DNA of 64,000 nucleotides from Emiliania huxleyi CCMP1516 (lineage: Eukaryota): the NCBI RefSeq assembly GCF_000372725.1, contig NW_005201287.1, forward strand, positions 62,001 to 126,000, read 5' to 3'. Position 1 is the first letter of the stretch, and each line of letters opens with the position of its first letter. Shown here piece after piece: positions 12,560 through 59,002 of this stretch. Under the pieces are notes generated by a model, which saw only the letters and a program-made list of their open reading frames with translations, was not told the origin of the DNA and made no database searches. The translations under genes and the position numbers were made by a program.

Positions 12560-15500
12560 TCAGATCCGACACGCGAGATGATACCTAGGGTCCTCGATGT
12601 GCGTGTTCAAGGCGTCCAGCGCCTCGCCCAGCTTTCTCCGTTCTGCCTTCTGGGCTGCTGCCAGGTCCGCTTGCAATGCGGCCTCCGCGCGGGCGAGCTC
12701 AGAGCCATGGTCGACGGGCATGATGCGTTCTGGGCTGACGAGCACCGCCTCGGCCGCCTCAGCCAATGCGGCGAATGAGCTCGGAGCCACCTCAGCAGCG
12801 GGAGTGGCGCCAGGGTCTGCATCGGCCGGCCCCTCACCCTCGGCATCAGGCAGCTCAAAGATTTGCCGCAGCCGCTCCTCTGTCGGCGCCTGGAGCTCAA
12901 TATCCGTGTCCGACTCGTCGTCGGACAGTTCGTGGTCGAGATCCTGCTTGCTGGCTCCGCTCAAGAGCTTCGGGAGAGGCGCTGCCGCTTCGGCCCACAT
13001 CCCCCTCCGCGGTGAACAGCGAGAGCTGATGGTCTCCTGCAAGAGCAGCGTGCGGCTAGAGGAGAGTCCAATCGGCTCGTGCAACCACGCCTCATTTGCG
13101 GGTACTGGCCTTGCACGCAGGTGAAACTCCACATCCGTCTCTGCGTGCGGCGGCGGCGGCGTGTAGACCCTTGGCGGTGGCTTGCTCCGCCAAAGTTTGC
13201 TCTCTGTCCCGGCGGTCGCACTCGCTTGGCCGTCCCCTCCAGCCCCTGGAGTGGAGGTGTGTCTCACAGTGAGAAGGGACGGCGGCATCGGCTCCAGATA
13301 AAAAGCCTTCCGGTCCCCCGTGGGCTGCGGCGTGCTCGCCTCGAACGCCGCTCCCACCCGCATCTCTTGCGTCGCAAGAGGGCTGGGCGTGGCATCGCCG
13401 GGAGCGGTGAAAAGCTGCTCCATGTACCCCATCTCCTTGTATCGGCGTGGCACGCGCAATGCGAACCGACGGAACGTCTGCGCCGGTTCGAGCGGCAACA
13501 CGGCAACGTCGAGAGGCGCATCGCGATCACGATTCGACACCGTGTCCGCCGTCGGGAAGGCGAAAGGTTCGATTCCCGACAGCGAGAGGGTTGGTGTGGG
13601 GACCGGTGCGCCAAAGCGACCAGCATCAGCTCTCGCTGTGGGCGCTCGTGAGGAGACCAAGCTGCGGCAATCCTTGAGGGAAAGACCGGCCTCTTCAAGG
13701 GACGCGCTGAAGCAATGCAGCCGGTCGGCGGCGCGTCTTTGAAGGAGCGCCGTCCGGACTCCCTTCTTGAAGATCGCGAGTGCCTGCTCACGCAAGGCAA
13801 AGGAGTCGTTCGAGTAGATGTCAAACGTCGGCTGTGCACCCTTTGCCGCCGCCACGACGCTGTCCGAGATCGTGGCGCGCCCCTTCTCGCCGAGCTCCGC
13901 CTCTCTGCGCTCGCGCCCACGGCGCCGTCTCTCCCGATCCTCGCTCACGTAGAAGGCTTCGCGCGCGGTGCGCGTCGCCTCAATGGTGGCCGTCGGGCAG
14001 GGCTCGGCGCCCCTGGCTACGAGCGCCTTGATCTCCTTCGCCTTCTCAAAGTTCTCCAGATCGGTCATCTGCCGGAGGAAGAGCATCTCTTTGACCTGAC
14101 GGCTCCGTTCCGCCGGCTGCAGCGCCAGGTCCAACTCCCCCGCCGGGGCGGAAGCGTCGGCAGAGGCGCCGATCTGAACCGAGGCCTGCTGCAGCCTGCG
14201 CTGTGGCTTCTTCACCTTCTCGTAGTCCAGCGTCTCTGCGCCGTCCGTGATTGTCGCAAATAGCGCATGCATGTCCGCCTCGCACGCCCCTGGAACCCGA
14301 AGCAGAGGCAGCGCGAGGGAGAACTGAGCGGCGTCAATCCGCCCCAAGCCATCAACGTCGACTTCCTCGAATAGCGTGAACGCGGCCTCGGCCTTCTCGG
14401 CGAGTGAGCGCTGCAGTAGCGATTCGAGAGAGGATGCAGCCACCTTCTCGACTGCTTCCCTGTCGCGCTCCGCCTGCAGCTTTTGCTGCGTGATGGCGCT
14501 GCGCAGCTCTGCGACAGGCAACTTGCCGCGCTGCCGGTTGAGGAGCGCGTTCACGCGGATCTGGCAGTCGAGGTCTCTGGGGATACTGTAGCCGTCGATG
14601 TGCGTCTCCTTAAGCGCGTGGATTCGCATCATCTCGCTGTCGACCGGGTACTTGACCGGAATGTTCCGCCTTCCCACCGTCTCGCGACGCGAGGCTGCCA
14701 TGGCGCGAGACACCGAATCTCCGCCGCCTCCATCCCCTCCAATCCTTCCTCGGTGGTCTGTCACCGCAGCTGCCGCAGCGACGGAGGAGGGCGTCGGCCG
14801 AGCAAGCAGGACGGATCTAATTGAGGCCGTCAGGGTGGGCGGCTCCGACTCGAGGGCATCCTCAAAAGCTGAGCTCGAGCTGAGCACCTGTGGCAGCGCT
14901 TGGGCGTGCTTTCCGCCGCGCTCCGAGCCGGCAGACGCGAGCGAGGCGAGCGAAGAGAGCGTCGGCAAGTGCTCCTGGCGAACATGGCCCGGTGCGCAAG
15001 AGCCAACCACCTCGATCCGTCGAGCAGTGAAGCCTGGCTGCGAGAGGCGCAGCTCTATCAGCATGCGTGCCGTGGCGAGCCGCACAGGCGAATAGACGAT
15101 TGTGAAAGCTGTTCCGCCCGCCGATATGGTGCCGGTCAGTGGCTCGACATTGAGCTCGGTCCCAACGAAGCCTCTACGCAGGATGCTGATCTCAAACCCA
15201 ACGCTGGCTGGTGACTGCAACGGCACCGAGTGGCTCACGTGCGATCCGAGCGTGACAGGCCCAAGGTCGATCAGAGACGGAATGCCCAGGTCGGTGGGCG
15301 AGGCCGTCGGAAAGGCCGCAAGTGGGATCAATAGCTCTCCCGTCTCGGCTTGCACCCGAATCTGGTCGTGGTAATGTCGGGGTTCTGAGTCGGAGGCAGT
15401 GAAGAGAACGAGCACCTCCTCTGCCATGCCGGGCATCACGAGGCCACGCTTGCGGAGCTTGAGCTTGAAGTGCGGCGTGGAGGGAGCATGGATGGTCATG

Positions 15501-15727
15501 CGCGCTGGCTTTCCCGATGCATTGATGAGCCTCAGCTTGGCAGAGCCGGCCGCTCTTCCCTCAATGCCGATCTCGATGGCAGGAGGCTCTGCCACGATGG
15601 AGTCTGGTTGGCCGAGCTTGGCATACGGGTTTGGTTGCTCCAGCAGAGGATTGTGAGGCGGCGCTGCGCGGTCGACCAGGGAGCTGGGCAGCTCGACCAG
15701 TGCCTGATCGTTTTGGACGACGACCAT
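12560..15727 (-). CDS. CFAP221: Cilia- and flagella-associated protein 221 (PCDP1) homolog, with an EF-hand-like insert
   Basis: Uninterrupted 1055-aa ORF. N-terminal ASH/Ig-like segment (RGLVMPGMAEEV...HYHDQIRV...LLIPLAAFP), plus RSRQVKEMLF, PTFDIYSND, RRADRL-like and LRVPRRYKEMGY motifs recognised from CFAP221. Confidence 0.8.
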   Translation of the reverse strand: MVVVQNDQALVELPSSLVDRAAPPHNPLLEQPNPYAKLGQPDSIVAEPPAIEIGIEGRAAGSAKLRLINASGKPARMTIHAPSTPHFKLKLRKRGLVMPGMAEEVLVLFTASDSEPRHYHDQIRVQAETGELLIPLAAFPTASPTDLGIPSLIDLGPVTLGSHVSHSVPLQSPASVGFEISILRRGFVGTELNVEPLTGTISAGGTAFTIVYSPVRLATARMLIELRLSQPGFTARRIEVVGSCAPGHVRQEHLPTLSSLASLASAGSERGGKHAQALPQVLSSSSAFEDALESEPPTLTASIRSVLLARPTPSSVAAAAAVTDHRGRIGGDGGGGDSVSRAMAASRRETVGRRNIPVKYPVDSEMMRIHALKETHIDGYSIPRDLDCQIRVNALLNRQRGKLPVAELRSAITQQKLQAERDREAVEKVAASSLESLLQRSLAEKAEAAFTLFEEVDVDGLGRIDAAQFSLALPLLRVPGACEADMHALFATITDGAETLDYEKVKKPQRRLQQASVQIGASADASAPAGELDLALQPAERSRQVKEMLFLRQMTDLENFEKAKEIKALVARGAEPCPTATIEATRTAREAFYVSEDRERRRRGRERREAELGEKGRATISDSVVAAAKGAQPTFDIYSNDSFALREQALAIFKKGVRTALLQRRAADRLHCFSASLEEAGLSLKDCRSLVSSRAPTARADAGRFGAPVPTPTLSLSGIEPFAFPTADTVSNRDRDAPLDVAVLPLEPAQTFRRFALRVPRRYKEMGYMEQLFTAPGDATPSPLATQEMRVGAAFEASTPQPTGDRKAFYLEPMPPSLLTVRHTSTPGAGGDGQASATAGTESKLWRSKPPPRVYTPPPPHAETDVEFHLRARPVPANEAWLHEPIGLSSSRTLLLQETISSRCSPRRGMWAEAAAPLPKLLSGASKQDLDHELSDDESDTDIELQAPTEERLRQIFELPDAEGEGPADADPGATPAAEVAPSSFAALAEAAEAVLVSPERIMPVDHGSELARAEAALQADLAAAQKAERRKLGEALDALNTHIEDPRYHLACRI

Positions 15728-15806
15728 GCTGATGTAACGACTCGTCGGGGCTGGGCGATGCGGCCAGTTGCGGGCATGAAGAAAACGTACAACGCCCCGT
15801 GGTGTG

Positions 15807-16559
15807 GGTGAACCTTCTTTTCTAGACCGGAAGGATTGAGAGCAGCCTCGCTCTCAATCCTAGAAGTCGAAGGATTGTGAGCAGCACTCCTCGCAATCGT
15901 AGCATCTCTGTGCGATTGCTAGCACCCACGCTCGCAATCCTACATCTTCTAGGACTAAGAGCAGCTCCGCTCCCAAGGTGACTGGTGACGCCTACGACTA
16001 CTACCAGCGCGCTCGCAATCCGAGCAAAGTCTAGGATTGCGAGCAGCACTGCTCGCAATCCTAGCAACATGCCTCCGATTGCGAGCAGTAGCGCTCGCAA
16101 TCCTACATCTTGTAGGACTATGAGCGGCGGCGCTCACAATCGTACCCAAGATCCGAGGATGCAGAGCNNNNNNNNNNNNNNNNNNNNNNNNNNNNNNNNN
16201 NNNNNNNNNNNNNNNNNNNNNNNNNNNNNNNNNNNNNNNNNNNNNNNNNNNNNNNNNNNNNNNNNNNGCGAGCGCTACTGCTCGCAATCGGAGGCATGTT
16301 GCTAGGATTGCGAGCAGTGCTGCTCGCAATCCTAGACTTTGCTCGGATTGCGAGCGCGCTGGTAGTAGTCGTAGGCGTCACCAGTCACCTTGGGAGCGGA
16401 GCTGCTCTTAGTCCTAGAAGATGTAGGATTGCGAGCGTGGGTGCTAGCAATCGCACAGAGATGCTACGATTGCGAGGAGTGCTGCTCACAATCCTTCGAC
16501 TTCTAGGATTGAGAGCGAGGCTGCTCTCAATCCTTCCGGTCTAGAAAAGAAGGTTCACC
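15807..16559. mobile_element. Foldback/Mutator-like non-autonomous element with long TIRs, spanning an N gap
   Basis: 15807-16098 is the reverse complement of 16268-16559. 9-bp TSD CGTGGTGTG at 15798-15806 and 16560-16568. TIRs are built of GCTCGCAATCC-like subrepeats. Confidence 0.85.
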
Positions 16560-46537: not shown

Positions 46538-47986
46538 TTGGAGGGAAGCGTGCTCGGCGGCGCCTGCCGCTTCCCTCCGCAGCCCCTCTCTGCCGCCTTC
46601 AGCGCGCTCGGCCAGACAATGCACGTGCCTGGGGCTCCGCACGCGGCGATCTCCGCTCGGCAGCCGCGATGAGTGACAACCGGAGGAGTGAGTGAGTTGA
46701 GGAGGCTTGCTACTAGGCGCGCCCGCTCGGCGCGTCGATGGCTGCCGCAGGCCTCGGCGGGCGGCTCGACGCAGCAGCTAGAGAGGACCCTCCTCCGAAG
46801 CTTCTCTGAACTTCCCTGCAGGCTTCGGCGGGCGGCTCGACGCCGCGGCTCTGTGCGGCGCCCTCTGCCGAGGCGCTCCCCTGCGCGAGGTCGTCGGCGG
46901 CCTCCTGGCGGCGGAAGATCCGCTCCGTCACCTCGCTGCGATGGCCATCCTTGCAAACGCGGCGGCGGGCGCGCGCGAGGTGAGGCTGGACGCAGAGGCG
47001 CTGCCCGAGACTTGTCCGCGACACGTCCGGGACGTGTTCCCCACAGGTGCGTCCGGACGGGGAGGCCCTCTCGCACGCGCAGCGAGAGCTGCTCGGCGGC
47101 TCCTTCCACGCCAACGCGCGGCTGTGGCCCGAGCACGCCCCGCTGCTGCAGCGGCTCGCGCGGCCGGCCTACGCGCAGGCGCAAGGGCTAGATCTCGGCT
47201 AGATCTCGGCTGTACCTCGGCTGCACCTCGGCTGCACCTCGGCTGTATCTCTCGGCTGCATCTCGGCTGCATCTCGGCTGCACCTCGGCTGCACCTCGGC
47301 AGCATCTCGGCTGCATCTCGGCTGCACCTCGGCCGCACCTCGGCTGCACCTCGGCTGCACCTCGGCTGCACCTCGGCTGCACCTCGGCTGCATCTCGGCT
47401 GCACCTCGGCTGCACCTCGGCTGCACCTCGGCTGCATCTCGGCTGCACCTCGGCTGCACCTCGGCTGCATCTCGGCTGCACCTCGGCTGCATCTCGGCTG
47501 CATCTCGGCTGCATCTCGGCTGCATCTCGGCTGCATCTCGGCTGCATCTCGGCTGTATCTCTCGGCTGCATCCCGGCTGCATCTCGGCTGCATCTCGGCC
47601 TGGCTACATGCAGGCGCACGGGTCGGCGGTCGCACGCCTCGTCGGACGGCGCCTCCTCGTTGATGTGCTGCTGCCCGACTTTTCGGCGGTCGCGTCGAAC
47701 GGCTTGCGCGAGCCCGACCCCGAGGCGAGATCGAGAGCCGAGATGTAGTCGGGGTTTTGTAGTCTCTAGCGGGGACACTGCTCAGAGCGTGACACGATTG
47801 CGGCAGGTGGTCGCGCTCCACGCGCTGCTCGAGCGCTCGCCTTTCGACGAGGTGCGCCGGCTCGCGCGCGACGTGCGGGCGGGCTACGCGGCGATGGCGG
47901 ACTCGGGCGAGCTGGCGGCGGGGCAGCCACTCCCGAACGCGGAGCACGTGCGCGAGCTGGTCGAGCTGCTCGACGAGGCGGCGTGA
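42693..47986 (+). CDS. Large multi-exon ankyrin-repeat protein
   Basis: Ankyrin motifs KGYTAMHYAAMG, GHTAVLRELVRHGA, PTALQAAVGAGHSEAASLL; a chain of spliceable exons ending ...ELLDEAA*. Could be two genes. Confidence 0.6.
44291..44389. repeat. (CCCT)n microsatellite
   Basis: Direct observation. Confidence 0.97.
47195..47598. repeat. Intronic 10-bp tandem repeat (CTCGGCTGCA[C/T] variants, 10-11 bp)
   Basis: About 35-40 copies. Confidence 0.97.
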
Positions 47987-49199
47987 GGGAGAGGGGAGGA
48001 GACATGCAGATGTTTATGAGATGCGAGAGCGCGGCGGGTAGGAGGTCCCCGGGCAAACGCGGACTGCTTCCGATGTGTGGCCCCTGTGGCTGGCCACTGT
48101 TACCTCTGTCAAATCACAACGCATGTTCGCCACAGGACATCATCCAGACGCTGCTCATACTGCCCCCCAAGACGATAAGTGTGAAGCATGAAGTGACGTT
48201 GGGAGAACGCGCGTGGGGCGTCGGGGGGCGAGGCGCTGCGCGGGCCGGCTAGCGGCATTCACGGCACATAACATTCGGCTCTGAGGGCGGGGGCGCAGGT
48301 AGAGGTAGGGCTGGCGTGGGGGGCCTCAGGTAAAGGTAAACCTGTCTCAGACCGCCGGAGGTAGAGGTAAACGGAAAAACCACGTGAGGGCAGGTATTAC
48401 CAGGTAAACGTACGCCCGTGATGCGTGAACGTAACCCGCCGAGGGCTCTGTCCTCGGGGGGGGGGAGGTGGGACGACCAAGGCCCCGCGAGAGCGCTTCG
48501 CCTGCGGCGCGCCTGCCCGGCCATGGACCAGGCTTCACCGCCGCTTGCCGACGGCTGATCGCATCGCCTACCGCATCATGCGCCGCGCATCGCGAATGAC
48601 CAGTGCCGCGACCACTTGACCTTGCTGCCTGCCTGCTGACCCCCGCGCGGTGCAAAGAATCTGCGCGTCTCTCGGTGCATTGATTGTGCATGATTGCTCG
48701 AGTGGCTCGAATTGGCAATCCACCGCAATGCGAACATGACTGGAGAGCATATGCAACACGGACGCAGGCTTGCCGTTGGCGACGTCGGTTATCAGAGGGG
48801 TCAGGTCATAGTGACGCGCTCGATGGGTTGCTGCATTGACGCACACAGCAAAAGCATCGCAGCAGAGACCTTCTCATGAGTGGCGGCTCGCACCATGCGG
48901 CAGTGCGGACACCAGGTGCGCGAATTTAAGAGCCATTTTTGGCCACCAAGCGAGATCACCCGAGAGCAGCTGAGTCTGCCTCTGGCCTCGCCTCCCTCTC
49001 CCTCAGCACAGGCATTCGTGGCATCCTATGGGTCGTCCAGAGTATCGACCTCTGGCTTGTCAGCCGGTCACTTGATGACACCATGAAGTACAGCGATCGC
49101 CATCTCGCTGGCCTCTCCGCAAGGCCCCCCGACCGCGTCGAACTCATCGGCGCGGGCTCTCTCGGCTACGGGACCGGCCCCAGCTTCGGCTGAGGGCGA

Positions 49200-49600
49200 A
49201 CAAGCTGCCGAGGCCCACGCGCAGCCCGCGGTGACGCAGCGCAGCGAGTGCGAGGCAAAACAGCCGGATCCTCCTCCCGCGCACCTGCGATCGATGCGCC
49301 CACGTCGTCAACGCCTTCCGCTCGTTGCCGTGCGCGAGGGCTGCGAGCGCTCGCCCACGCAGCTGCCGCGACAGCCGCCGGCGCTCCACGAACACCGCGC
49401 GCCAGCTGTTCCAGCCTCGGCGGCCGCACCGGTCTTGGAATGCGTCTGCTGCCCTTCGCAGCAGCCGCCACGCGCGTGCGGATGCTCGTGCGTAGCTCGC
49501 CCACGTGTTGAGGCCCACGCGCAGCCCGCGGTGACGCAGCGCAGCGATCGCGGTCTCTCTTTCGCTACGTGTTCGACGTCGTCGAACAACGTTCGACCAT
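49200..49600 (-). pseudogene. Sfi1-like (centrin-binding) repeat gene fragment
   Basis: Periodic Trp repeats LRVGLNTWA, RRGWNSWRA, RKALTTWA; 38-bp direct repeat at 49210 and 49510; no complete gene visible. Confidence 0.5.
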
Positions 49601-50693
49601 GGCACTGTTCACAGCGCGCGCGGACGGCGGTTCTGCGACTCCTGCTCCGCAGGACTTTTGTAAAGCATGCTTGTGGCAAGTTATGGACGCTAGTATCGAC
49701 CTCAGAGACCCAAACCCGAATTAATAATTAAGGCTCAAAGTATGGTCGAACAACCGTCGAACAAACAGGTCGAACAACGAAAAGAGACTAGTGCGACCGC
49801 TAGACGGCGGTTCCCGCCGGCCCCAAGGCTGCCCACAGCTCCAGTATCACACCGGCCACGTACACCGTAGCGCTGGAGTCGGTCAGTGAGGCACTAGACG
49901 GGCTACGGAACCATGCGCGCGCCGGCCGGACAGGCTGCGCGCATGGGCCGCGCCGCCTCGATTTCGCACCTCCGCTCCGCGGCCAGCTGAGGGGCGCAAG
50001 CTCGCCCGGCGACAAGCCCAGCCATCGCCCAGCGCCCCGTATCGACGGGGGGCACGCAAAAAAAACGCACCTACGACTAGGGTGAGCATGCGAGGGCGTC
50101 GGTGTGGGCCGCGGGCAGGCTGCCAGGAGGGCGCGGGTGGGAGCATGGGAGATGCACCACCGCTCAACGAAGACGCGCCCGACGAAGCCCTGCTAGCGGA
50201 GGATGGTCGATCCTCACCTACTAGTGTCGGGCGTGTGCGAAAAAGAGCGCAAATCGGAGCTCAACTCGCGCGCGGCTTGGAAAGGGGTGTGGCACCTTCC
50301 GAAGGCGCCTACCTAGCGAGGAGCTGCTGCTGCCCCCAAACGCGCTCGGGCAGCACGTCGGCGCGCCAGCGGTATATTGCCAGCGGTGGCGGACTGTATT
50401 CATGTATCTCCTCTCCTGGGGCTTGGCGGGCACAGGCTTTCATATTATTATATCAGCCCACTGTTGGCTTCCAGAACTTTCATGTTTGTCAGTGGCCCCA
50501 CTCGGCGAGCAAGGCCCTCGGCTGATCAAGAGCCCCGGACACGTGGAACGCCCTGCTACTTTCCGTCGAACGCGGGCTGATATTATATTGTATCCGGGCT
50601 GACTACCATGGCGCCTTGGGAGGCGGAGCGGGCGAGGTGAAACCGTCGTCAATCTCAAGATTTTTCTTGGTCCTCATCCACAGAGAGCCCGCG

Positions 50694-53233
50694 ATGGCGC
50701 AGCGCCGTGTGCGGTTCACCGCAGCGCTCAACTCGTATGTCCACGACCAAGGCTCGGAGGGCACGTGCTACGCTCACGCGGTGGCCACGCTTGTCGTCGA
50801 CGCGCTGCGGAGGCTCGGCGTTCCTGCGCAGTCCGCGCCCCTTCGAAGTACCGTCCTCGAAGAGCTCGTAGCTCGATTTGGGAAAGAAGGCGCGATCGTG
50901 CCTACAGTGCTCGACTGGGCGCTCCGTACGTACGTACGCCCGCACAGCGACGAGGCCGAGTGCGAAGAGCTGGAGACCACGGACGCGGTGATGGAGGTGC
51001 TCGAGCAGGCCGAGGGCAAGGTGGTGATGGATTTCCGTATGAGCTGCTCGCAGTGGGCTCACTTCGAAGCCTTCTTCCGAGCGGAGCCGATGGGCATCCT
51101 CAGTGCGGGCGCGCTCGGCGACCCGCACGGTCGCATCAGCGGCCACGCCGTCGTCATCGAGGGCTCCGAGGACTACTCGCATGGCGGCGCGAACGTACCG
51201 GCGCACCACTTCTGGCGCTTCAAGAACTCGTGGGGCGGGCAGCACGCCGACGCTGGCTTCTACCACGTCGCGCGCGACGCCCTTCCCGGCGTCCGATTCT
51301 TTGCCATCGACGTGCCGGTGCGGCACCGTCGCTTCCGCGAGCTCTTCCTGCCCGGCAGCCGCCCAGACCGCACCTTCGACCTGCGCGGCGCGCTGGCGCT
51401 CTCGAGCGACAAGGTGGGCGAGGGCTCCTTCGGCACCATCTTCCGAGCCTCGCCCCACCCCGCTCCGGAGCCCGCAGTGCGCGAGCGCCTCCTCGCGCGC
51501 GCGGCTCGCGACGCGCTGCCCGCGAGCATGGCGGTCAAGGCCGTCCCGCGCGCCGATCGCGCGCACGCGCTGATTGAGGAGATGCGCCACCTGACGACGC
51601 TGCAGCATCCGTGCGTGGTCAAGGTGCTCGGCTTCACCCTCGACCGCAGCGGCCGCTGGGCGCTCGTCATGCCCCTGTACGAGCTTGGCTCGCTGTCGCA
51701 CCCGCGCCCGGGCGCGCTCGTCACGCGCAGCGCCCTCCCCCGCATCCTACACTGCGTTGCGACCGCCCTGCAGCACGTGCACGACGCCGGGTACATCCAC
51801 GGCGACGTGAAGGAGAGCAACGTGCTGCTTCACATGGATCGGCACGCCGGTCCGGACAAGGTGCTCTGCGGCGTCCTCGCAGATTTCGGCAGCATCCAGC
51901 GCATCGACGCGCCACGCAAGCTCGCGCGCGTGGGCACGTCGGTGTTCCGCGACCCGCGCGTGCGCAGCGGCGACTACGGGAGCGAGATCGACGTCTACGC
52001 CTTCGGCTGCGTGCTCGCCGGCACCGCCGTGCGCGTGGTGCACACGGACGCGTCCTTGCAGTCGCAGCTTGGCGAGCTCGCGGAGCGCTGCAAGGCCAGC
52101 GCCTGGCAGCAGCGCCCGGAGGCCTTTGGACTCATGCTCGAGCTCGCGCAAATTGTAAACCAGCAGCCCCTGCGAGGGGGGCACGTGCGCCCGGGGGCGG
52201 GCATCGACGGCCTCGTCGCGTCGCCGAGCAGATGGCGCGCAACCGCTCGCGCTTGTCGAGTACCGGCTCCGAGCTTCACGCGGTGATGGCGCCGCCGCCT
52301 CTGCCGCGCCCGCTCGAGGTGCCCACGGACGTCCCGTCGGATCTGGACGAGGTCGATCGCGCGCACGTCGTCTATGTGTCACGGGCCAAGTACCACCACC
52401 GCTCCTGCCCGATGATCGAGAGCTGGCACCGCTCCAGCCGCACCGAGTTCGAGAAGCAAACATTTGAGTACGTCGCGCCGCGCGTGCGCTTCAAGCCGTG
52501 CTCCTCGTGCGCGCACCACTTCCGCTTCCGCTTCAACGTCTTCCCCCGCCCCCGCGGCGCCGTGCAAGCGTACCCCGCCTTAAACCGCCCCGCGCCGTAC
52601 CCCATGGACGACATCGGAACCCCTCCGTGGTACGCACGGATCCTCGAGCCCACGGGCGACGACGATCACCCCGAGACGATCACCCTCGGCCCGCTGCACG
52701 TGGACGACGCCTTCGAGGCGCGCGCCGAGGCGCTGCGCTACCTGTGCGATCTGAGCGGAGCGTACAAGTGTGCGCTGCGCGACCCAGTCGGCCAGATGAC
52801 CGAGTACGAGGAGCACCCGGCGCCGCCCGCCCGCGCGCGCGACGGCTCCGGCGGCATGGACATCCGCTTCGAGACGCCGGCCGGCGACGCGGTGTGCGTC
52901 AAGATCCGCCCCTTCTCGGTCGCCATGGAGCGCGGCTGGCCGCTCCAGGGGGATGCCGACCGCCCGGATCCACACGCGGAGCGGTGGTCGGAGGACGACG
53001 ACTTTAGCGACGGCGACGGGGAGTACCCGGAGCTCGCGGAGAGCACGAGCGCTCGCTGGGGCAAGCACAAGGGGACGGAGGAGGACGTGACGAGGGTAAT
53101 GACGGAGAACCAAATCTTCTGGGGCGCGAGCCGAGTCGGCCGGAACGGCTTCGATCTGCTGGAGGACTACAAGAGGCATCCGGATCGCGTGCTCAACTTC
53201 CTCCGGTCGCGAGGCGTCAGCATCCGCTTGTGA
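50694..53233 (+). CDS. Papain-like (C1A) cysteine peptidase / protein kinase / Cys-His motif fusion; frameshifted at 52215-52224, in-frame stop at 52286
   Basis: Peptidase: DQGSEGTCYAHA, GHAVVIEG, FKNSWG. Kinase: GEGSFG, AVK, HGDVKESN, DFG, DVYAFG. Downstream frame has KYHHRSC...KPCSSC. Intronless. Confidence 0.85.
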
Positions 53234-53856
53234 GCGGCAAGGGCAAGCCGAGAAGATCGCGGCGCTTCCGACGCGTCGCGCGTGAGCTGCTCCCAGGCGC
53301 CCATTTTGTGAAATGCCTGGCCACTCACCTAAGCCGATCTCAGAAACACACTCGTGCGGCTGCGCATTGTTTGTATTTTTCCCTTCTCTACGAGCCTGCG
53401 AGTGAAAATTTCAGCCCTGAAAATAGCTGCATCGTCCATCGAAGATCACATATTATCGAGATCACTCGAGAGATCACTCGAGACACGAGAGATCACGCAC
53501 AGGTAAATCACGGCCCTAGGCCGGTCGCTCAGAGGTAGAGCTAGAGGTAAAAGGTAAAAGGGCCCACGGCTGCCCAGAGGTAAAGGTAAGAGGGCCGCAG
53601 GCCCTCAGAGGTAGAGGTAACCTAGACCCCTCCTACCCGGCCCTCAGGGCCGATAACATATCGGTTATCGCCTTATCGCATTTTTTCAATCGATGTTATA
53701 TATATAGCGAGCATCCGATGAGAAAAACGACCACATTCTTGTATTCTCGGCTCTAGCGCGCCCAACACAGCTATAGACGACCCCCCCAGCTGCCTCTAGA
53801 CACGCCCTGGCGCCCCCCGGGCCCTGCCCACCACGCCCTCCCCCGACCCCCTAATG

Positions 53857-55336
53857 CTACGCCCCGTCCGTCTCCATCGCGCTCACACGCTTGGGCCTGT
53901 CTCTCACCTTGCGCCGGTCTGCCGCGGGCGGCGCCGGCGTGGCTATCCGGCCGTACTCCGCCTGGTTCGCCCTCGCCCGCACCACGCGCAGTGTGTGGCG
54001 GAGGCAGGTGCCCGCAAAGACGATGACGAGCAGTGCAATTCCGACCACTTCGGTGAAGGTGGCGGCGGGCGACGAGGCCCAGCGACCCTTGGGCAGCCGC
54101 TCCGCCGCCGCCCTCGCCTCCTCCGAGACAAAAACCTGCGTCAGCCGCCCGTCCTCGAGCAGCAGCTGCGCGCCCGCCACCGCGTCGAGGTCCGAGCAGA
54201 TCTCCGACGAGGAGAGAGCAAAGGCGGGGAGATGCTCAACGACCACCTGCAGCTGCTGGGCCAGTAGCCGCGCCGCCGTGCTCGCGTCGGCGGCGCCCGA
54301 CTGCGAGGCCGCAAAGAGGTCGAGCACGAGGTACTGGCCTGCTCCAAACATGTCGCGGACCTCGACGGATGCGGCGTCCACCCGCAGCTGCGCGGCGATC
54401 TCCGCGGCGACGAGATCGGCCATCTGAGTCAGGTCGCGACCCACCTGCGGCCTCCTCAGCCTGAGCTGAAGGCGCGCCGCCTCAGGATGCAGCGCAGGCA
54501 AAGGTAGGGACGCGGCCGGCTCGCTCGGCGCCGACGGCCGCTCCAGCCCCCGCAGGCCCACCGGCGTCACGCGGAAGGCGCAGCCTGACGCTGGGCACCG
54601 CAGCGGGAGGGCCTGGAAGCCGACTCCCGCAACGGCGTAGGCGAGCGTCTCCCACGGCGCGTCGTCGATCGAGGCGTGCCTCGACGGCTCGCGCAGCACA
54701 GACACCGCCCAGCGCAGCTTCGGCCGGCAGGCGCCGCCCAGCTCCCCCCACGTGATTGCAAAGGACGCTGAGCTCGTCGCGATCACGCGCGGCGCGGCGA
54801 GAGCCGCGGCGTTGTCCGAATCGGTCAGCAGGGGGCCCGTCGGCTCGGATGGCGGGCCCGCGCCGTCGTCGTTGTGCGCCACGACTCGGAACTCGACCGC
54901 GTCGTACTCTTCCAGCCCGTCGATCAGCGCCGTCGACCCCGCGGTGCGAGGCACCACGTCGGACCAGTCGCCCGTCAACCTGCCCGGGTACCCCACCAGC
55001 TCGTCGGCGGGGAGGAGCGAGCGGCCCTGCACGGTGAAGAAGGCCTCGCCGCGGCAGCCCGCCCGCAGCGCTGGAAGCTCGAGGCCGACCGACCTATTCG
55101 GAGGCGGTGCCGTGGACCACGGCGTGCCACGCCAGTGGTGTGTGTGCTCACCCGGCGCCTGCAGCTGTGTGAGCGGGACGGCTTGGGCGCGCTCGCAGCA
55201 ATGAGCGGCGCGCCACCCGAGTCGGTGGTGAGCCGCAGCGGCCGCGTCATGCGGCCGGGGCCCTTCGAGTTGCGGCCTTGCACCTGAACCAGGTAGGTGG
55301 TCCCGCCCGAGAGGCCCGATAGCACAAAGGAGAGCC
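53857..55336 (-). CDS. Fibronectin type-III repeat, single-pass membrane protein; 3' part only, 5' exons not identified
   Basis: LSGLSGGTTYLVQVQGRNSKGPG and IDGLEEYDAVEFRVVAHNDDGAGPPSEP; TM segment VVGIALLVIVFAGTCL. Confidence 0.75.
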
Positions 55337-55443
55337 CTACGCTAGCCGGGGGTCGTTCGGCTCACGAATACACGAGATGGGGGAAGACTAGCACACTAGC
55401 CGCCTCTTCCAGTTCCACATGGCCCGGCTCGGGTCCCTCCTCC

Positions 55444-55931
55444 CTTAGGGTACCCCTAGGGTTCTGAGGGCCGGATTGTTTTAAGACCTTTTAGGAAATG
55501 AGGAGGTTTGGGGGCTCAAATTGTCATTTAAGAGATTGCAGGCACGGGGGGTCCCTCTTTTAAGTCTGTTTAAGAAAATCGGCCTCGCCGGCATGCGTCG
55601 CTGGGTTCCGCGCCGTTTTATCCAATACTGCCTTTATTAGGCACAAACCCGCCTCTGAAGACACATCTGTAGGTCTGGTGCACTGGCAGGAGCCATACTC
55701 GCATAGGGGACGCGTGCCAGCTGACTGTAGCCAGCTTCCCGGCCTCCGGCGTCTACCGGGAGCCTCCCGGACGCCATCGACCTCGGGAGCTCTCCCGCAC
55801 CGTTTAAGCGTTTAAGACCGTTTAAGGAATCGGCGGCCCAGCAGCTCTTAAAACCGGCCTAGGCCGGTTTTAAGCCGTTTAAGCCGCAGGCGCCCCAGGG
55901 CCCACCCTTTTAAGCCTAGGGGTACCCTAAG
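55444..55931. mobile_element. hAT-like MITE, 488 bp
   Basis: Perfect 17-bp TIR CTTAGGGTACCCCTAGG; perfect 8-bp TSD CCTCCTCC (55436-55443 and 55932-55939); internal TTTAAG subrepeats. Confidence 0.9.
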
Positions 55932-57099
55932 CCTCCTCCCTCGTGCGGCGATCGCGCCTGAGATCTTTCGGAGTTCGTTTATCACCCCCCCCCCCCCCCC
56001 TCGCCTCCGAGCAACTTTAAGCCCTGCCCCTGGCCCTGAAAAGGTTCGTTCACTTAGATCTAGATCTAACGCAGAATACCCCTCCCGTAAGCAAGAAAGA
56101 AATAAAGAAAACACGCAACCCAAGCGCCAAGGGAGGGATGGGACAACCTTCACGCCTCCTCGCTTGGTCTGCCCCCGCGAAGCCCTCATAGTTAGAGGCT
56201 GCGCAGGCCGTCCCGTTTGCTGTTTGCATAAAAAACGCCTGTTGCGCTGCGCGCGCGCGCCGGGGCCGTCTGTCTCACTCACGTGCCGCAATATGTGTCA
56301 CACACGGCGGCTTCTGCCACCTCTCGATTGGTTCCATTTTCTACGCACACCTACCGGGGAAGGGGCGCTTGGGAGCGGGGGCGGGGGCGGGGGCGGGGGT
56401 GGGGGCGGGGGCGCGCAGCGCGCGGCCGCGCGCGCGCATCAGAGGGTAGGGGTGGGGAAGACGGCGAGGAGAGGGGGCGGCGCGGCGGCGGCGGCGGCAG
56501 CGCGCGCGCGGCGCGCGCGACGGAGGGGCGGAGCAGCGACCGCTGGCGCGGTCGCTGCTCCGTCTGTGACAGCGACGCGCGCTCTGGTGCAGAGCGCGCG
56601 TCAGGAAGGGGGCAAGCGTGGCGGCGCGGGACGCGCGGCGGCGGCGGCGAGCAGCCGAGCGCTCCGTGAGCGGTGAGGCGGCCGGGCGAGGGCGCGGCGG
56701 GTGACGGGTCAAGGGAGCAGCCCACACCCGGCCGTCGCTTTTTGAGCGACGCCTGCGGCACGCCTGCGCAGGGGCCGCAGGGCGGTCAGTTGTGGGCCGA
56801 GGCGGTGCCGGCCGCGGGCCGGGAGCAAGGCGCCGGCCTCGGCGCCGCCTCGGCGCGCCGCACGGGCGCGGCGAGCCTCTGAAATGGAGCCGAAGGTTTG
56901 CTGCGGTAGGTAGGTGGTAGGTGGTAGGTGGGGTGGTTTGACTTTGCCGCAGAGGCCGTCCCTAGCTGTGAACAGCAAACCCACGTATTTTTCTTCCCTG
57001 CAGAAAGCCTGTCGGCCACGCCGTCCACTAGCTGCCCGCCGCGTGCAGAGTGCCTTCTGCAGGTCGCCCCCCCCCGCCGTCCGCTGCCCGCCGCAGCGA

Positions 57100-59002
57100 A
57101 TGCCAGCCCGGCAGGCGATCCCTGGCCTCTATTGCGAGGGGAGCTGGAGCACGGCGGAGCAGAAGCGGCGCCACTTTATCGTCGAGGGCCAAGTGCTCAA
57201 GCTGTTTGGGCGGCGCGGCAAGACCTTCAAAGGCCAGCTCAACCTCGCCGCAGTGACGGCGCTGCGGCCCGCAACCGACCCCGCGGCGCCGACCGGCACG
57301 CTTGAGCTCCAGCTCGACGGCGTCGTCCGCGCCTCCCGCCGGCCGACCTCATATTTCCTCGCGCCGGAGCGGTCTGCTGCGGAGCTCTTCCTCGCGCTCG
57401 GTGGCGCGGTGCCGTCGCAGGCGACGAGCGACGACCTTTGGAGGACGCACATGCGGAGCCGGCCGGCCGGCGGCATTGGCGGCACCGGCCAGGCGTCGCA
57501 CGAGTACCGCGTCGGCCGCACGCTCGGGACGGGGACATTTGGCAAGGTGAAGCTGGCGCAGCGGCTGGCCGACGGGCAGATGGTTGCCATCAAGTGCCTC
57601 AACCGGAACCGGATCGTGTTCGCGGCGCAGGGGGAGCGGCTGGCGCGCGAGATCCGGCTCCTCAAGCTGCTCAACCACCCGAACGTCATCCGGCTTCACG
57701 AGGCGCTGCACACGCCCTCCCTGAGGGTTGCGTGCAGGACGTCTCCGTGGTCCACGACATGTCCGAGACATGTCCCGCAGGTGCTGCACACGCCCTCCGA
57801 GATCCTGATGGTGATGGAGTACGTGCACGGAGGCGACCTGCTCGAGGTGCTCAACACGCAGCCGCGCTTCCGCGAGGAGCAGGTGCGCGCCATCTTCGCG
57901 CAGATCTGCTGCGGCGTCTCCTTTTGCCACTCGCTCGGCGTCGCGCACCGCGACCTCAAGCCGGAGAACATCCTTCTCGAGCGGGTCGGAGACGACTTTC
58001 AGATCCGCGTCGCAGACTTTGGGCTCTCAACCATCATGCAGGCGGAAGGAGCGGGAGTGAAGCGGTCGGTTGACACGCATGAATCACTCACCGAGAGCAA
58101 GTAGCCCGTCCCGCGGGCAGGGCGGCGGCCAATCAGCTCGAATGAAGCACTCACCGACGAGCGCCCGGCCACCCTGCAGGCGGGGCAGCTGCTCTCCACC
58201 TCGTGCGGCTCTCCGCACTACGTCGCGCCCGAGATCCTCAACTTCGACGGCACCGCGCGCTACGACGGCCGAGAGGCGGACGTCTGGTCCCTCGGCGTCA
58301 TCCTGCACGTGCTGCTCTGCTACCGGCTCCCCTTCGAGGCGGACTCGACCACGCTGCTGTACAAGAAGATCCGGCAGGGCCTCCCCTCGCTGCCCCCGCA
58401 CGTGTCGGAGCTGGCGACGCAGCTGCTCGGCGGGAGACCTCGACGTGTCTCCCTCCGCACCACGACACGTCCGCGACACGTCCGCGACACGTCCCCGCAG
58501 GCGGGATGCTCGAGGTGTCGCCCGAGCGGAGGTGGACGCTCGAGCAGGTGGTGCGCTCCGAGTGGCTCTCGCTCGACGTCGAGGCGCCAAAGTGGTCGCA
58601 GCTCGTCGACGCCGTCGTCGACGCGGACGCCGCCGACGGAGGCGCCCAGCTCGTGGGCCCTCCGCATGAATGGTTGATGAGTCCTCATGAGCGAGTCACT
58701 ATGAGGACTCATCACTCACAGGCGTCAGCTCGTGGGCCCTCATCTCCCCGTCGCGGCTCGCCACGGCCTCGCCCGAGCCCGAGCCGTCTGCCGGGATCGA
58801 GGTGCGGCGCGCATTCACTTTCGACTTTTTGCCGCGCACGCTCGACTCGGAGAGCGAGGGCGAGGCGCCCGACCCCGGCTTCGGCTCCTACCCTGGCAGC
58901 CACGCGCCGTCCCCGACCACAGGGCTGCGCGCGCCCAGCGCTCGAGGTTCGTGCCGCGAGCAGAACGGCAGCAGGGGCAGCAGCAGTGGAAACGGAGCCT
59001 GA
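57100..59002 (+). CDS. PH-domain Ser/Thr kinase, CAMK group (SNF1/CIPK-like)
   Basis: GTGTFGKV, VAIK, HRDLKPEN, DFG, TSCGSPHYVAPE, DVWSLG. GC-AG introns 57703-57780, 58042-58179 and 58430-58500, plus one near 58645-58720. PH-like N-terminus. Confidence 0.9.

What the first reader, a model, noticed from the sequence alone, without database searches (positions are those of the whole stretch)
50694..52286. Papain-like peptidase fused to a non-RD protein kinase
Seen: oxyanion Gln and catalytic Cys (DQGSEGTCYA), His (GHAVV) and Asn (KNSWG) are all present, with no signal peptide or prodomain. A kinase follows with intact G-loop, Lys, HGD catalytic loop and DFG. Known: C1A peptidases are usually secreted zymogens, and non-RD kinases are enriched among innate-immune kinases. 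Inference: a cytosolic protease-kinase switch, possibly for antiviral or cell-death signalling. I do not recognise this architecture from characterised proteins.
Basis: partly seen in the sequence, partly recalled or inferred. Interest (0 to 1): 0.8.

Follow-up and report, generated by a model that had tools for sequence, protein, structure and literature searches.

The report
Algal protease-kinase-zinc-finger fusion protein
A bloom-forming alga carries a gene, broken by one missing base in this assembly, whose intact form joins a papain-type protease domain, a kinase domain and a predicted DNA-binding zinc module; this unusual combination likely works as a DNA-triggered stress or defence switch.

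Summary
The window is Emiliania huxleyi. The 530-aa ORF stops early because one C is missing after position 52220. The usual allele is 846 aa and runs on into ORF 52232-53233.

The intact protein has four parts: a leaderless papain-like protease, a non-RD kinase, an Ada-type zinc module and an unknown tail. The protease's Gln/Cys/His/Asn are kept in 126-129 of 129 relatives. The zinc module is supported by a profile match, a pLDDT-81 model and Ada as the top two of 48,161 PDB chains, though at low Z. His replaces Ada's methyl-accepting Cys.

The protease-kinase-zinc core recurs in relatives at 34-49% identity; one ends in a Myb domain. The protease belongs to a wider family that is repeatedly fused to kinases (25 of 144 scanned), vWA or ubiquitin; named members come from a dinoflagellate and foraminifera. 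The gene sits in a 5.4-kb segment with transposon-like ends.

Ten literature searches found no description. The best reading is a DNA-tethered protease-kinase switch. An antiviral or cell-death role is untested.

The parts
50694..53233 (+). Whole gene: 846-aa protein in the intact allele; here split by a 1-nt frameshift into ORFs 50694-52286 and 52232-53233
   Evidence: JGI model EMIHUDRAFT_200874 (772 aa) skips the break
50694..51323 (+). Leaderless papain-like cysteine protease domain (aa 1-210): Gln19 50748, Cys25 50766, His151 51144, Asn178 51225
51396..52163 (+). Non-RD protein kinase (aa about 235-490): G-loop, VK Lys, alphaC Glu, HGD, DFG; RDP in place of APE
52220..52221 (+). Frameshift: one C missing relative to L001; gives the 530-aa short form
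   Evidence: (BLASTN L001 against window)
52355..52525 (+). Ada-type zinc module (aa 555-611; H568-x3-C572 ... C603-x2-C606), predicted to bind DNA
52526..53233 (+). Unassigned C-terminal region (a low-confidence beta-hairpin/helix domain, then an acidic tail); conserved in P0004 and L002, replaced by Myb in P0052/P0056
48276..48300 (+). Left imperfect terminal inverted repeat of a candidate 5,377-bp non-autonomous DNA transposon; 8-bp flank at 48268-48275
   Evidence: 15/18 and 19/25 match to the right end; repeat boundary
53628..53652 (-). Right imperfect terminal inverted repeat; 8-bp flank at 53653-53660, 7/8 identical to the left flank
48297..48412 (+). Left cluster of AGGTARAGGTA subterminal repeats (4 of 10 window matches)
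53533..53619 (+). Right cluster of AGGTARAGGTA subterminal repeats (4 of 10 window matches)

Best explanation
The intact gene encodes one protein with a leaderless papain-like domain, a non-RD kinase domain and a zinc module, which likely binds DNA through the predicted Ada-type zinc module and would then signal stress or infection by phosphorylating and cutting itself or partner proteins. Shown: the domain order, intact catalytic motifs, lack of a leader, conservation of the three-domain core, and the frameshift in this copy. Predicted: the Ada-type fold. Inferred: DNA binding, nuclear location, enzyme activity, DNA-triggered activation, and a stress or defence role. With no prodomain, the protease needs another brake; the likely one is the fused kinase and zinc part, released by clustering on DNA or by autophosphorylation. 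If the missing base is real, this strain makes a 530-aa form without the DNA-tethering part.
For: Core conserved: P0004 (780 aa), the spliced gene on L002, P0052/P0056 (694/692 aa) and P0202 (740 aa) all have protease, kinase and zinc module in this order. Their protease domains form one clade (13 rows, SH-aLRT 98, quick tree; P0202 itself was not in the tree, its cluster-mate P0060 was). Zinc module: hhalign 66% to a 6-sequence Ada-like profile. That profile hits the same site in P0001, P0004 and P0052 above all 300 shuffles of each. The model has pLDDT 80.7. The top 2 of 48,161 PDB chains are both E. coli Ada N-domain (Z 3.2 and 3.1), and 7 of the 50 listed viral-structure hits are named Ada or methylphosphotriester domains. 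P0052/P0056 add a Myb domain above the Pfam cut-off. The kinase is non-RD across the clade and nearest IRAK1 (Z 22.5, rmsd 3.0, 231 aligned). Non-RD kinases are enriched in immune signalling, 12 of 15 (PMC8872720, passages). The protease family is repeatedly fused to kinases: 22 alpha-kinase and 3 ePK among 144 scanned. RNA runs hold the gene.
Against: No activity, location or expression-response data. The Ada match is weak at every step: Z about 3, tied with an unrelated T4 topoisomerase chain (Z 3.0); no Foldseek E<=0.001; no Pfam or PDB sequence hit; and the Ada idea was formed before searches tested it. Only one of four full-length lineages has a certain Myb; P0202's is barely above shuffles. 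No clear nuclear signal, only short basic clusters. The kinase lacks the APE glutamate. The non-RD link to immunity comes from plants, animals and yeast, not algae. The gene looks single-copy, unlike expanded immune families (own knowledge). At least 4 of 15 listed cluster members are frameshifted or truncated.
Confidence: 0.45

Rival explanations
1. The protease is an isopeptidase for ubiquitin or a ubiquitin-like tag, and the protein is a housekeeping chromatin, DNA-damage or telomere regulator that removes tags and phosphorylates chromatin-bound targets, with no link to infection.
For: Sister proteases are fused to ubiquitin (4 of 144), vWA (19 of 144) and an XPC-binding domain (1 of 144). 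Many deubiquitinases are leaderless papain-fold enzymes (own knowledge). The Myb of P0052 looks like the telomere-binding (telobox) type (recalled motif, not tested). Ada is a DNA-repair domain (PMC4999995, passages).
Against: The sequence keeps the C1 signatures (QG...C, H, NSWG), and the best PDB sequence hits are cathepsins and plant C1A enzymes, with no deubiquitinase listed. His stands where Ada has its methyl-accepting Cys38 (Cys38's role recalled). Few relatives were found, which is unlike a core housekeeping gene.
Confidence: 0.25
2. The protease acts only in cis, as an autoprocessing module. It cuts itself off to release a kinase plus DNA-binding fragment that acts as a transcription regulator.
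For: The protease is terminal in most architectures and moves freely between unrelated partners. It has no prodomain. Relatives end in Myb.
Against: Many relatives of 180-300 aa show only the protease domain, though some may be fragments. No cleavage site was identified.
Confidence: 0.15
3. In E. huxleyi the gene is decaying cargo of a non-autonomous transposon, and the family's function is being lost in this species.
For: Frameshift in the window; other broken forms in P0011, P0014, P0015 and P0023; intronless where L002 has two introns; transposon-like ends; a different upstream sequence in L001.
Against: Four full 846-aa members among 15 listed, plus L001. All catalytic residues are intact. 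GC3 is 0.89. Held by 16 of 20 listed runs, 6 of them on record as RNA. Broken forms may be assembly errors.
Confidence: 0.15

Closest known systems
Papain family C1A cysteine proteases (PF00112; cathepsins S/V, ananain, bromelain)
   Same: Gln-Cys-His-Asn catalytic set and the NSWG motif; best PDB sequence matches.
   Different: No signal peptide or propeptide; below the Pfam cut-off; fused to a kinase and a zinc module; belongs to a distinct leaderless subfamily (374 representatives at E<=0.001).
IRAK/Pelle/RLK and RIPK non-RD immune kinases (IRAK1, XA21, FLS2)
   Same: Non-RD catalytic loop; the model is nearest IRAK1, IRAK4, ScRIPK and IRAK3; GT...DP activation segment (likeness to RLK/Pelle recalled).
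   Different: No death domain, ectodomain or transmembrane helix (max KD19 1.37); lacks the APE Glu; carries its own protease. Kinase-group membership was not tested by a tree.
E. coli Ada N-terminal zinc domain and the Ada-like metal-binding domains of phage proteins
   Same: Ligand spacing x3 ... x2, predicted fold.
   Different: His in place of the methyl-accepting Cys; no AraC HTH or O6-methyltransferase; eukaryotic, and behind a kinase.
Plant kinase-fusion proteins and protease-gated kinase systems such as AvrPphB/PBS1 (recalled, no call)
   Same: A kinase joined to, or gated by, an unrelated domain or a papain-fold protease in defence.
   Different: Here protease and kinase are one host polypeptide with a predicted DNA-binding part; no NLR partner is known.
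Non-autonomous hAT-like or Pack-type DNA transposons (class features recalled)
   Same: Short imperfect TIRs, an 8-bp flanking duplication, clustered subterminal repeats, a captured gene.
   Different: No transposase found, no empty site seen, subterminal repeats in direct orientation.

Membership tests
C1A papain family | Catalytic Gln, Cys, His, Asn in papain order | tested here: met
   conserved in 126, 127, 129 and 127 of 129 aligned domains
C1A papain family | Score above the PF00112 gathering cut-off | tested here: not met
   18.7 bits against 20.7; 107 of 144 relatives match at E<=0.001
C1A papain family | Signal peptide and inhibitory propeptide | tested here: not met
   Cys at residue 25, no hydrophobic leader. 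Filed as C1-related and leaderless, not canonical C1A
C1A papain family | Papain fold in a structure comparison | tested here: inconclusive
   The domain had pLDDT mostly under 55 in the only model, and the fold search was filled by the kinase; not modelled alone
C1A papain family | Proteolytic activity | not testable with these tools
   Needs an assay
Non-RD IRAK/Pelle/RLK kinases | G-loop, Lys, alphaC Glu, catalytic Asp, DFG | tested here: met
Non-RD IRAK/Pelle/RLK kinases | No Arg before the catalytic Asp | tested here: met
   HGD, HCD or HFD in 8 of 8 clade sequences with the motif; HRD only in foraminiferan P0160
Non-RD IRAK/Pelle/RLK kinases | Placement in the IRAK/Pelle/RLK clade by phylogeny | not tested
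   Only structural nearness; best PDB sequence hits of relative P0052 were STK24
Non-RD IRAK/Pelle/RLK kinases | Death domain or receptor ectodomain and transmembrane helix | tested here: not met
Ada N-terminal zinc domain | Four zinc ligands spaced x3 ... x2 | tested here: met
   H568, C572, C603, C606 align with Ada C38, C42, C69, C72; conserved in the full-length relatives
Ada N-terminal zinc domain | Ada fold | tested here: inconclusive
   Top two PDB hits are Ada, but at Z 3.2 (rmsd 5.5, 55 aligned) and 3.1 (rmsd 3.1, 52 aligned), tied with rank 3; repeated weak BFVD hits
Ada N-terminal zinc domain | Methyl-accepting cysteine | tested here: not met
   His at the Cys38 position (role of Cys38 recalled). 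Likely a binding module, not a repair enzyme
Ada N-terminal zinc domain | DNA binding | not testable with these tools
   Needs EMSA or ChIP
Non-autonomous hAT-like element | Terminal inverted repeats | tested here: met
   15/18 and 19/25
Non-autonomous hAT-like element | 8-bp target-site duplication | tested here: met
   7 of 8 identical
Non-autonomous hAT-like element | Empty-site allele, or other copies with the same ends and different flanks | tested here: inconclusive
   Ends are multi-copy by contig depth, but no joint across the element is listed; no genome held
Non-autonomous hAT-like element | Cognate hAT transposase with the same ends | not testable with these tools
   No whole genome held; 4 of the 27 frames listed for 48276-50600 were scanned, none transposase-like

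The most novel reading that the evidence does not exclude
An undescribed one-protein innate sensor of algae. An Ada-type zinc module (plus Myb in some lineages) recognises foreign or damaged DNA, such as giant-virus genomes, and switches on a non-RD kinase and a leaderless papain protease in the same chain. It is one branch of a wider, uncharted protist toolkit in which this protease is shuffled onto ePK, alpha-kinase, vWA, ubiquitin and GTPase partners. In E. huxleyi it travels in a Pack-type transposon and varies between full and sensor-less alleles.
Probability: 0.15. Interest if true: 0.85.

Novelty: new variant of a known kind. Interest (0 to 1): 0.6.

Why it matters
E. huxleyi blooms end in giant-virus infection with programmed cell death, and how the host senses viral DNA is not known (own knowledge). 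A protein that puts a predicted DNA-binding module, an immune-type kinase and an unguarded cysteine protease in one chain is a concrete, testable candidate. Natural full-length and truncated forms appear in public data and could serve as controls. Apart from that, the search exposed a family of several hundred leaderless papain-like domains that fused to kinases more than once. An Ada-type module in a eukaryotic signalling protein is also unusual. Neither turned up in the literature searches run here.

Tried and rejected
Two separate genes: rejected. L001 and 9 of 12 spanning cluster members read through, and P0004 and L002 have the same order.

JGI's 772-aa model, which splices out the break: probably wrong. 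The removed residues are conserved in P0004 and L002.

Hairpin as the cause of the indel: no support (z +1.35).

Viral or prokaryotic origin of the fusion: no match in viral contigs with the window domain. The profile found 3 viral loci and 1 archaeal locus with distant proteases. None of 23 distant loci carried a kinase frame.

Region after the zinc module: no hit in Pfam, NCBIfam or PHROGs (E 0.34 at best), the ESM Atlas, or the word-based search (one search also missed the known relative P0004). The whole-protein model was poor (pLDDT 46.5).

Zinc module: no PDB sequence hit, only noise in plasmids, nothing in Foldseek-PDB. P0202's tail gave only RNA polymerase noise.

No Rfam match at 48000-56500. 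No whole genome is held, so copy number and empty sites were not examined. Whether the missing base is in this strain's DNA or is an assembly error stays open: one search did not list the indels inside the gene.

Runs X15-X16 (small share) and X17-X20 (0.00) are not used as evidence. Lack of RNA-contig cover upstream of 50667 is at most a weak hint of the transcript start.

Literature: 10 searches gave no paper on this architecture or gene. All were seen as listings only, except passages of PMC8872720 and PMC4999995. No supplements were opened; expression tables in supplements may bear on a viral response. Look-ups of earlier scan findings by sequence, by place and by one word set were empty.

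Full report
Source and observation. The ORF at 50694-52286 is present as described. Its first 498 residues match EMIHUDRAFT_200874 of Emiliania huxleyi CCMP1516 (100% identity over 94% of the query). Pfam gives a clear kinase (E 8e-22) and a sub-threshold papain match (E 0.0019; 18.7 against 20.7 bits).

The ORF is truncated. The best homologue, P0001, is 846 aa and continues into the window's next ORF, 52232-53233. Metagenome contig L001 is 98.7% identical over 2,849 columns. It has one extra C after window position 52220 and encodes 846 aa. Of 15 listed members of the 19-member cluster, 12 span the site. Nine are in frame, P0011 has the window's tail, and P0014 and P0023 have other tails. 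P0015 breaks earlier. In one search the X7 contig is one base longer than the window once a listed 2-nt deletion is allowed for, which fits the extra C (my arithmetic; the indel itself was not listed). Whether the break is real in this strain is open. RNA runs hold the gene (X11 and X12, 0.78 and 0.72 of words). One X11 contig covers 50667-52645, across protease, kinase and zinc module. Contigs cannot show strand or level.

Protease. A four-sequence profile of aa 1-210 found 374 representatives at E<=0.001 among 1.84 billion. Of the 145 new ones listed, 144 were scanned: 107 match PF00112 at E<=0.001, 22 carry an alpha-kinase, 19 vWA, 4 ubiquitin and 3 an ePK. Single cases carry Ras (with alpha-kinase), MORN, jacalin or an XPC-binding domain. 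In the 129 of 152 sequences with a near-complete domain, Gln, Cys, His and Asn are kept in 126, 127, 129 and 127. PDB sequence hits are cathepsins and plant C1A enzymes, and the ESM Atlas returns C1 peptidases (0.95, 170 shared features). In 13 of 13 N-terminal cases checked, the Cys lies within 39 residues of the start, with no hydrophobic leader. Of 10 clusters looked up, the named members are Polarella glacialis (alpha-kinase fusion), Nonionella stella and Bolivina argentea. The rest are unnamed, so the taxonomic range is only partly known.

Repeated kinase fusion. In a quick IQ-TREE tree of those 129 domains (the careful search did not finish), the window's protein lies in a 13-row clade with SH-aLRT 98. 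I labelled 12 of these 13 as ePK-type; four of the labels (P0057, P0058, P0060, P0062) rest on partial kinase motifs or closeness, not on a Pfam hit. The foraminiferan RD-kinase fusion P0160 and the alpha-kinase fusions lie elsewhere. Alpha-kinases are a different fold and occur on either side of the protease, so protease and kinase were joined more than once. The deep branches are weak.

Kinase. Catalytic residues are intact, and the RD arginine is replaced by G, C or F across the clade. The activation segment ends in RDP (RDN in P0202) rather than APE. The modelled domain is nearest IRAK1 (Z 22.5), then IRAK4, ScRIPK and IRAK3 (Z 21.1), but relative P0052's best PDB sequence hits are STK24. 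PMC8872720 (passages) reports that 12 of 15 immune-signalling kinases are non-RD, against 9-29% of kinomes. This raises the odds of an immune role but is not evidence for algae.

Zinc module. After the kinase, every full-length clade member examined (P0001, P0004, L002, P0052/P0056, P0202) has a YV..HH..C ... K.C..C motif. I recognised its likeness to Ada from memory and then tested it. hhalign gave 16% against E. coli Ada alone and 66% against a six-sequence Ada-like profile. That profile scored 4.0-4.8 bits at this site in three proteins, against shuffle maxima of 1.8-3.3 (300 shuffles each). An AlphaFold model of aa 549-619 reached pLDDT 80.7. Unguided searches with it put two Ada structures first among 48,161 chains (Z 3.2 and 3.1; next 3.0) and listed 7 Ada-named proteins among the top 50 viral models, none at E<=0.001. 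Each result is weak, but they agree. His replaces the Cys that aligns with Ada Cys38. Ada uses one zinc-bound Cys as methyl acceptor (PMC4999995, passages; that it is Cys38 is recalled), so this is likely a binding module and not a repair enzyme. The last domain varies. P0052/P0056 end in a Myb domain and P0202 possibly does (marginal). P0001, P0004 and L002 share an unassigned region.

Gene context. L002 carries a 46%-identical gene with two introns (GT-AG, 118 nt, and a second candidate GT-AG), between kinesin and BCS1-like genes. The fusion is therefore an ordinary spliced eukaryotic gene elsewhere, and the neighbours are not shared. In the window the gene needs no intron and lies inside 48276-53652. 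This segment has imperfect inverted ends (15/18) and 8-bp flanks that match at 7 of 8. Of 292 million position pairs 3-8 kb apart, 9 met such criteria, and the other 8 are GC-rich low-complexity sequence; the thresholds were set after I saw the candidate. Eight of 10 AGGTARAGGTA matches in the window cluster at the two ends (0.28 expected). Contig depth jumps at both ends (X1: 172 and 191 in the end bins, 14.7 over the gene, 18.2 in the left flank), and contig breaks fall at 48304 and 53652. I read this as a non-autonomous hAT-like or Pack-type element that carries the gene (about 65%). Against: no empty site was seen, the subterminal repeats are in direct orientation, and the interior is a mosaic of other repeats.

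Mechanism. The likeliest reading (0.45) is a DNA-tethered switch. The zinc module, with Myb in some relatives, would hold the protein on DNA; clustering or autophosphorylation would release a protease that has no prodomain; cleavage and phosphorylation would then pass on a stress or infection signal. Only the anatomy is shown. Rivals are a ubiquitin-like isopeptidase in chromatin housekeeping (0.25), a self-cleaving regulator (0.15) and decaying cargo (0.15).

Comparison and verdict. Each part has known kin, but the protein fails canonical C1A membership (no prepro region, below cut-off) and Ada membership (no acceptor Cys), and its kinase group is untested. Ten full-text searches listed no paper on this architecture or gene; the library lacks most subscription papers, and no supplements were read. 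Verdict: real, larger and more informative than reported, apparently undescribed, function inferred. New variant of a known kind; interest 0.6.

Noticed in passing
window 48276-53652: Candidate 5,377-bp non-autonomous DNA transposon around the gene: imperfect TIRs, 8-bp flanking duplication, subterminal repeats.
   Followed up: partly
window 49520-50370: Multi-copy repeat with high depth in RNA runs and CT..AC joints at 50066-50154 and 50215-50311, which would be minus-strand GT-AG introns; a transcribed, spliced repeat facing away from the gene.
   Followed up: no
window 48868-49301: Very high-depth repeat (up to about 9,800 against about 15 in X1), with a 43-nt direct repeat at 49210 and 49510.
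   Followed up: no
window 55444-55931: MITE-like element with 27-nt inverted ends; its end resembles the terminal motif of the larger element.
   Followed up: no
L001 110-1428: About 1.3 kb of other sequence replaces window 50640-50675 just upstream of the start codon: a promoter-region polymorphism or a misassembly.
   Followed up: partly
window 52220-52221: Three different broken tails (P0011 and the window, P0014, P0023) start at the same codon, so the site is an indel hotspot in alleles or in assemblies; no hairpin explains it.
   Followed up: partly
proteins P0064-P0201: Wider leaderless papain-like family with alpha-kinase, vWA (plus a C-terminal Cys motif), ubiquitin, Ras, MORN, jacalin and XPC-binding fusions, and tandem forms whose second copy appears to lack catalytic residues (P0065, P0067, P0072, P0093). 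Not found in the literature searches.
   Followed up: partly
L029 4959-6062 and L031 4914-8708: Leaderless papain-like proteins with lysine-rich tails on viral contigs (L031 is labelled GVMAG); L031's is 1,264 aa with a long helical C-terminal part. No kinase.
   Followed up: no
window 56914-58104: Unrelated RD protein kinase gene (PF00069 E 3e-41) downstream, with a PH-like N-terminal stretch by eye.
   Followed up: no
window 12560-15853 (-): A 1,097-codon stop-free frame with no Pfam match, in a lower-GC part of the window.
   Followed up: no
window 46928-47663: Tandem-repeat stretch (AEMQPRCSRDA-type frames on the minus strand), probably a repetitive intron.
   Followed up: no
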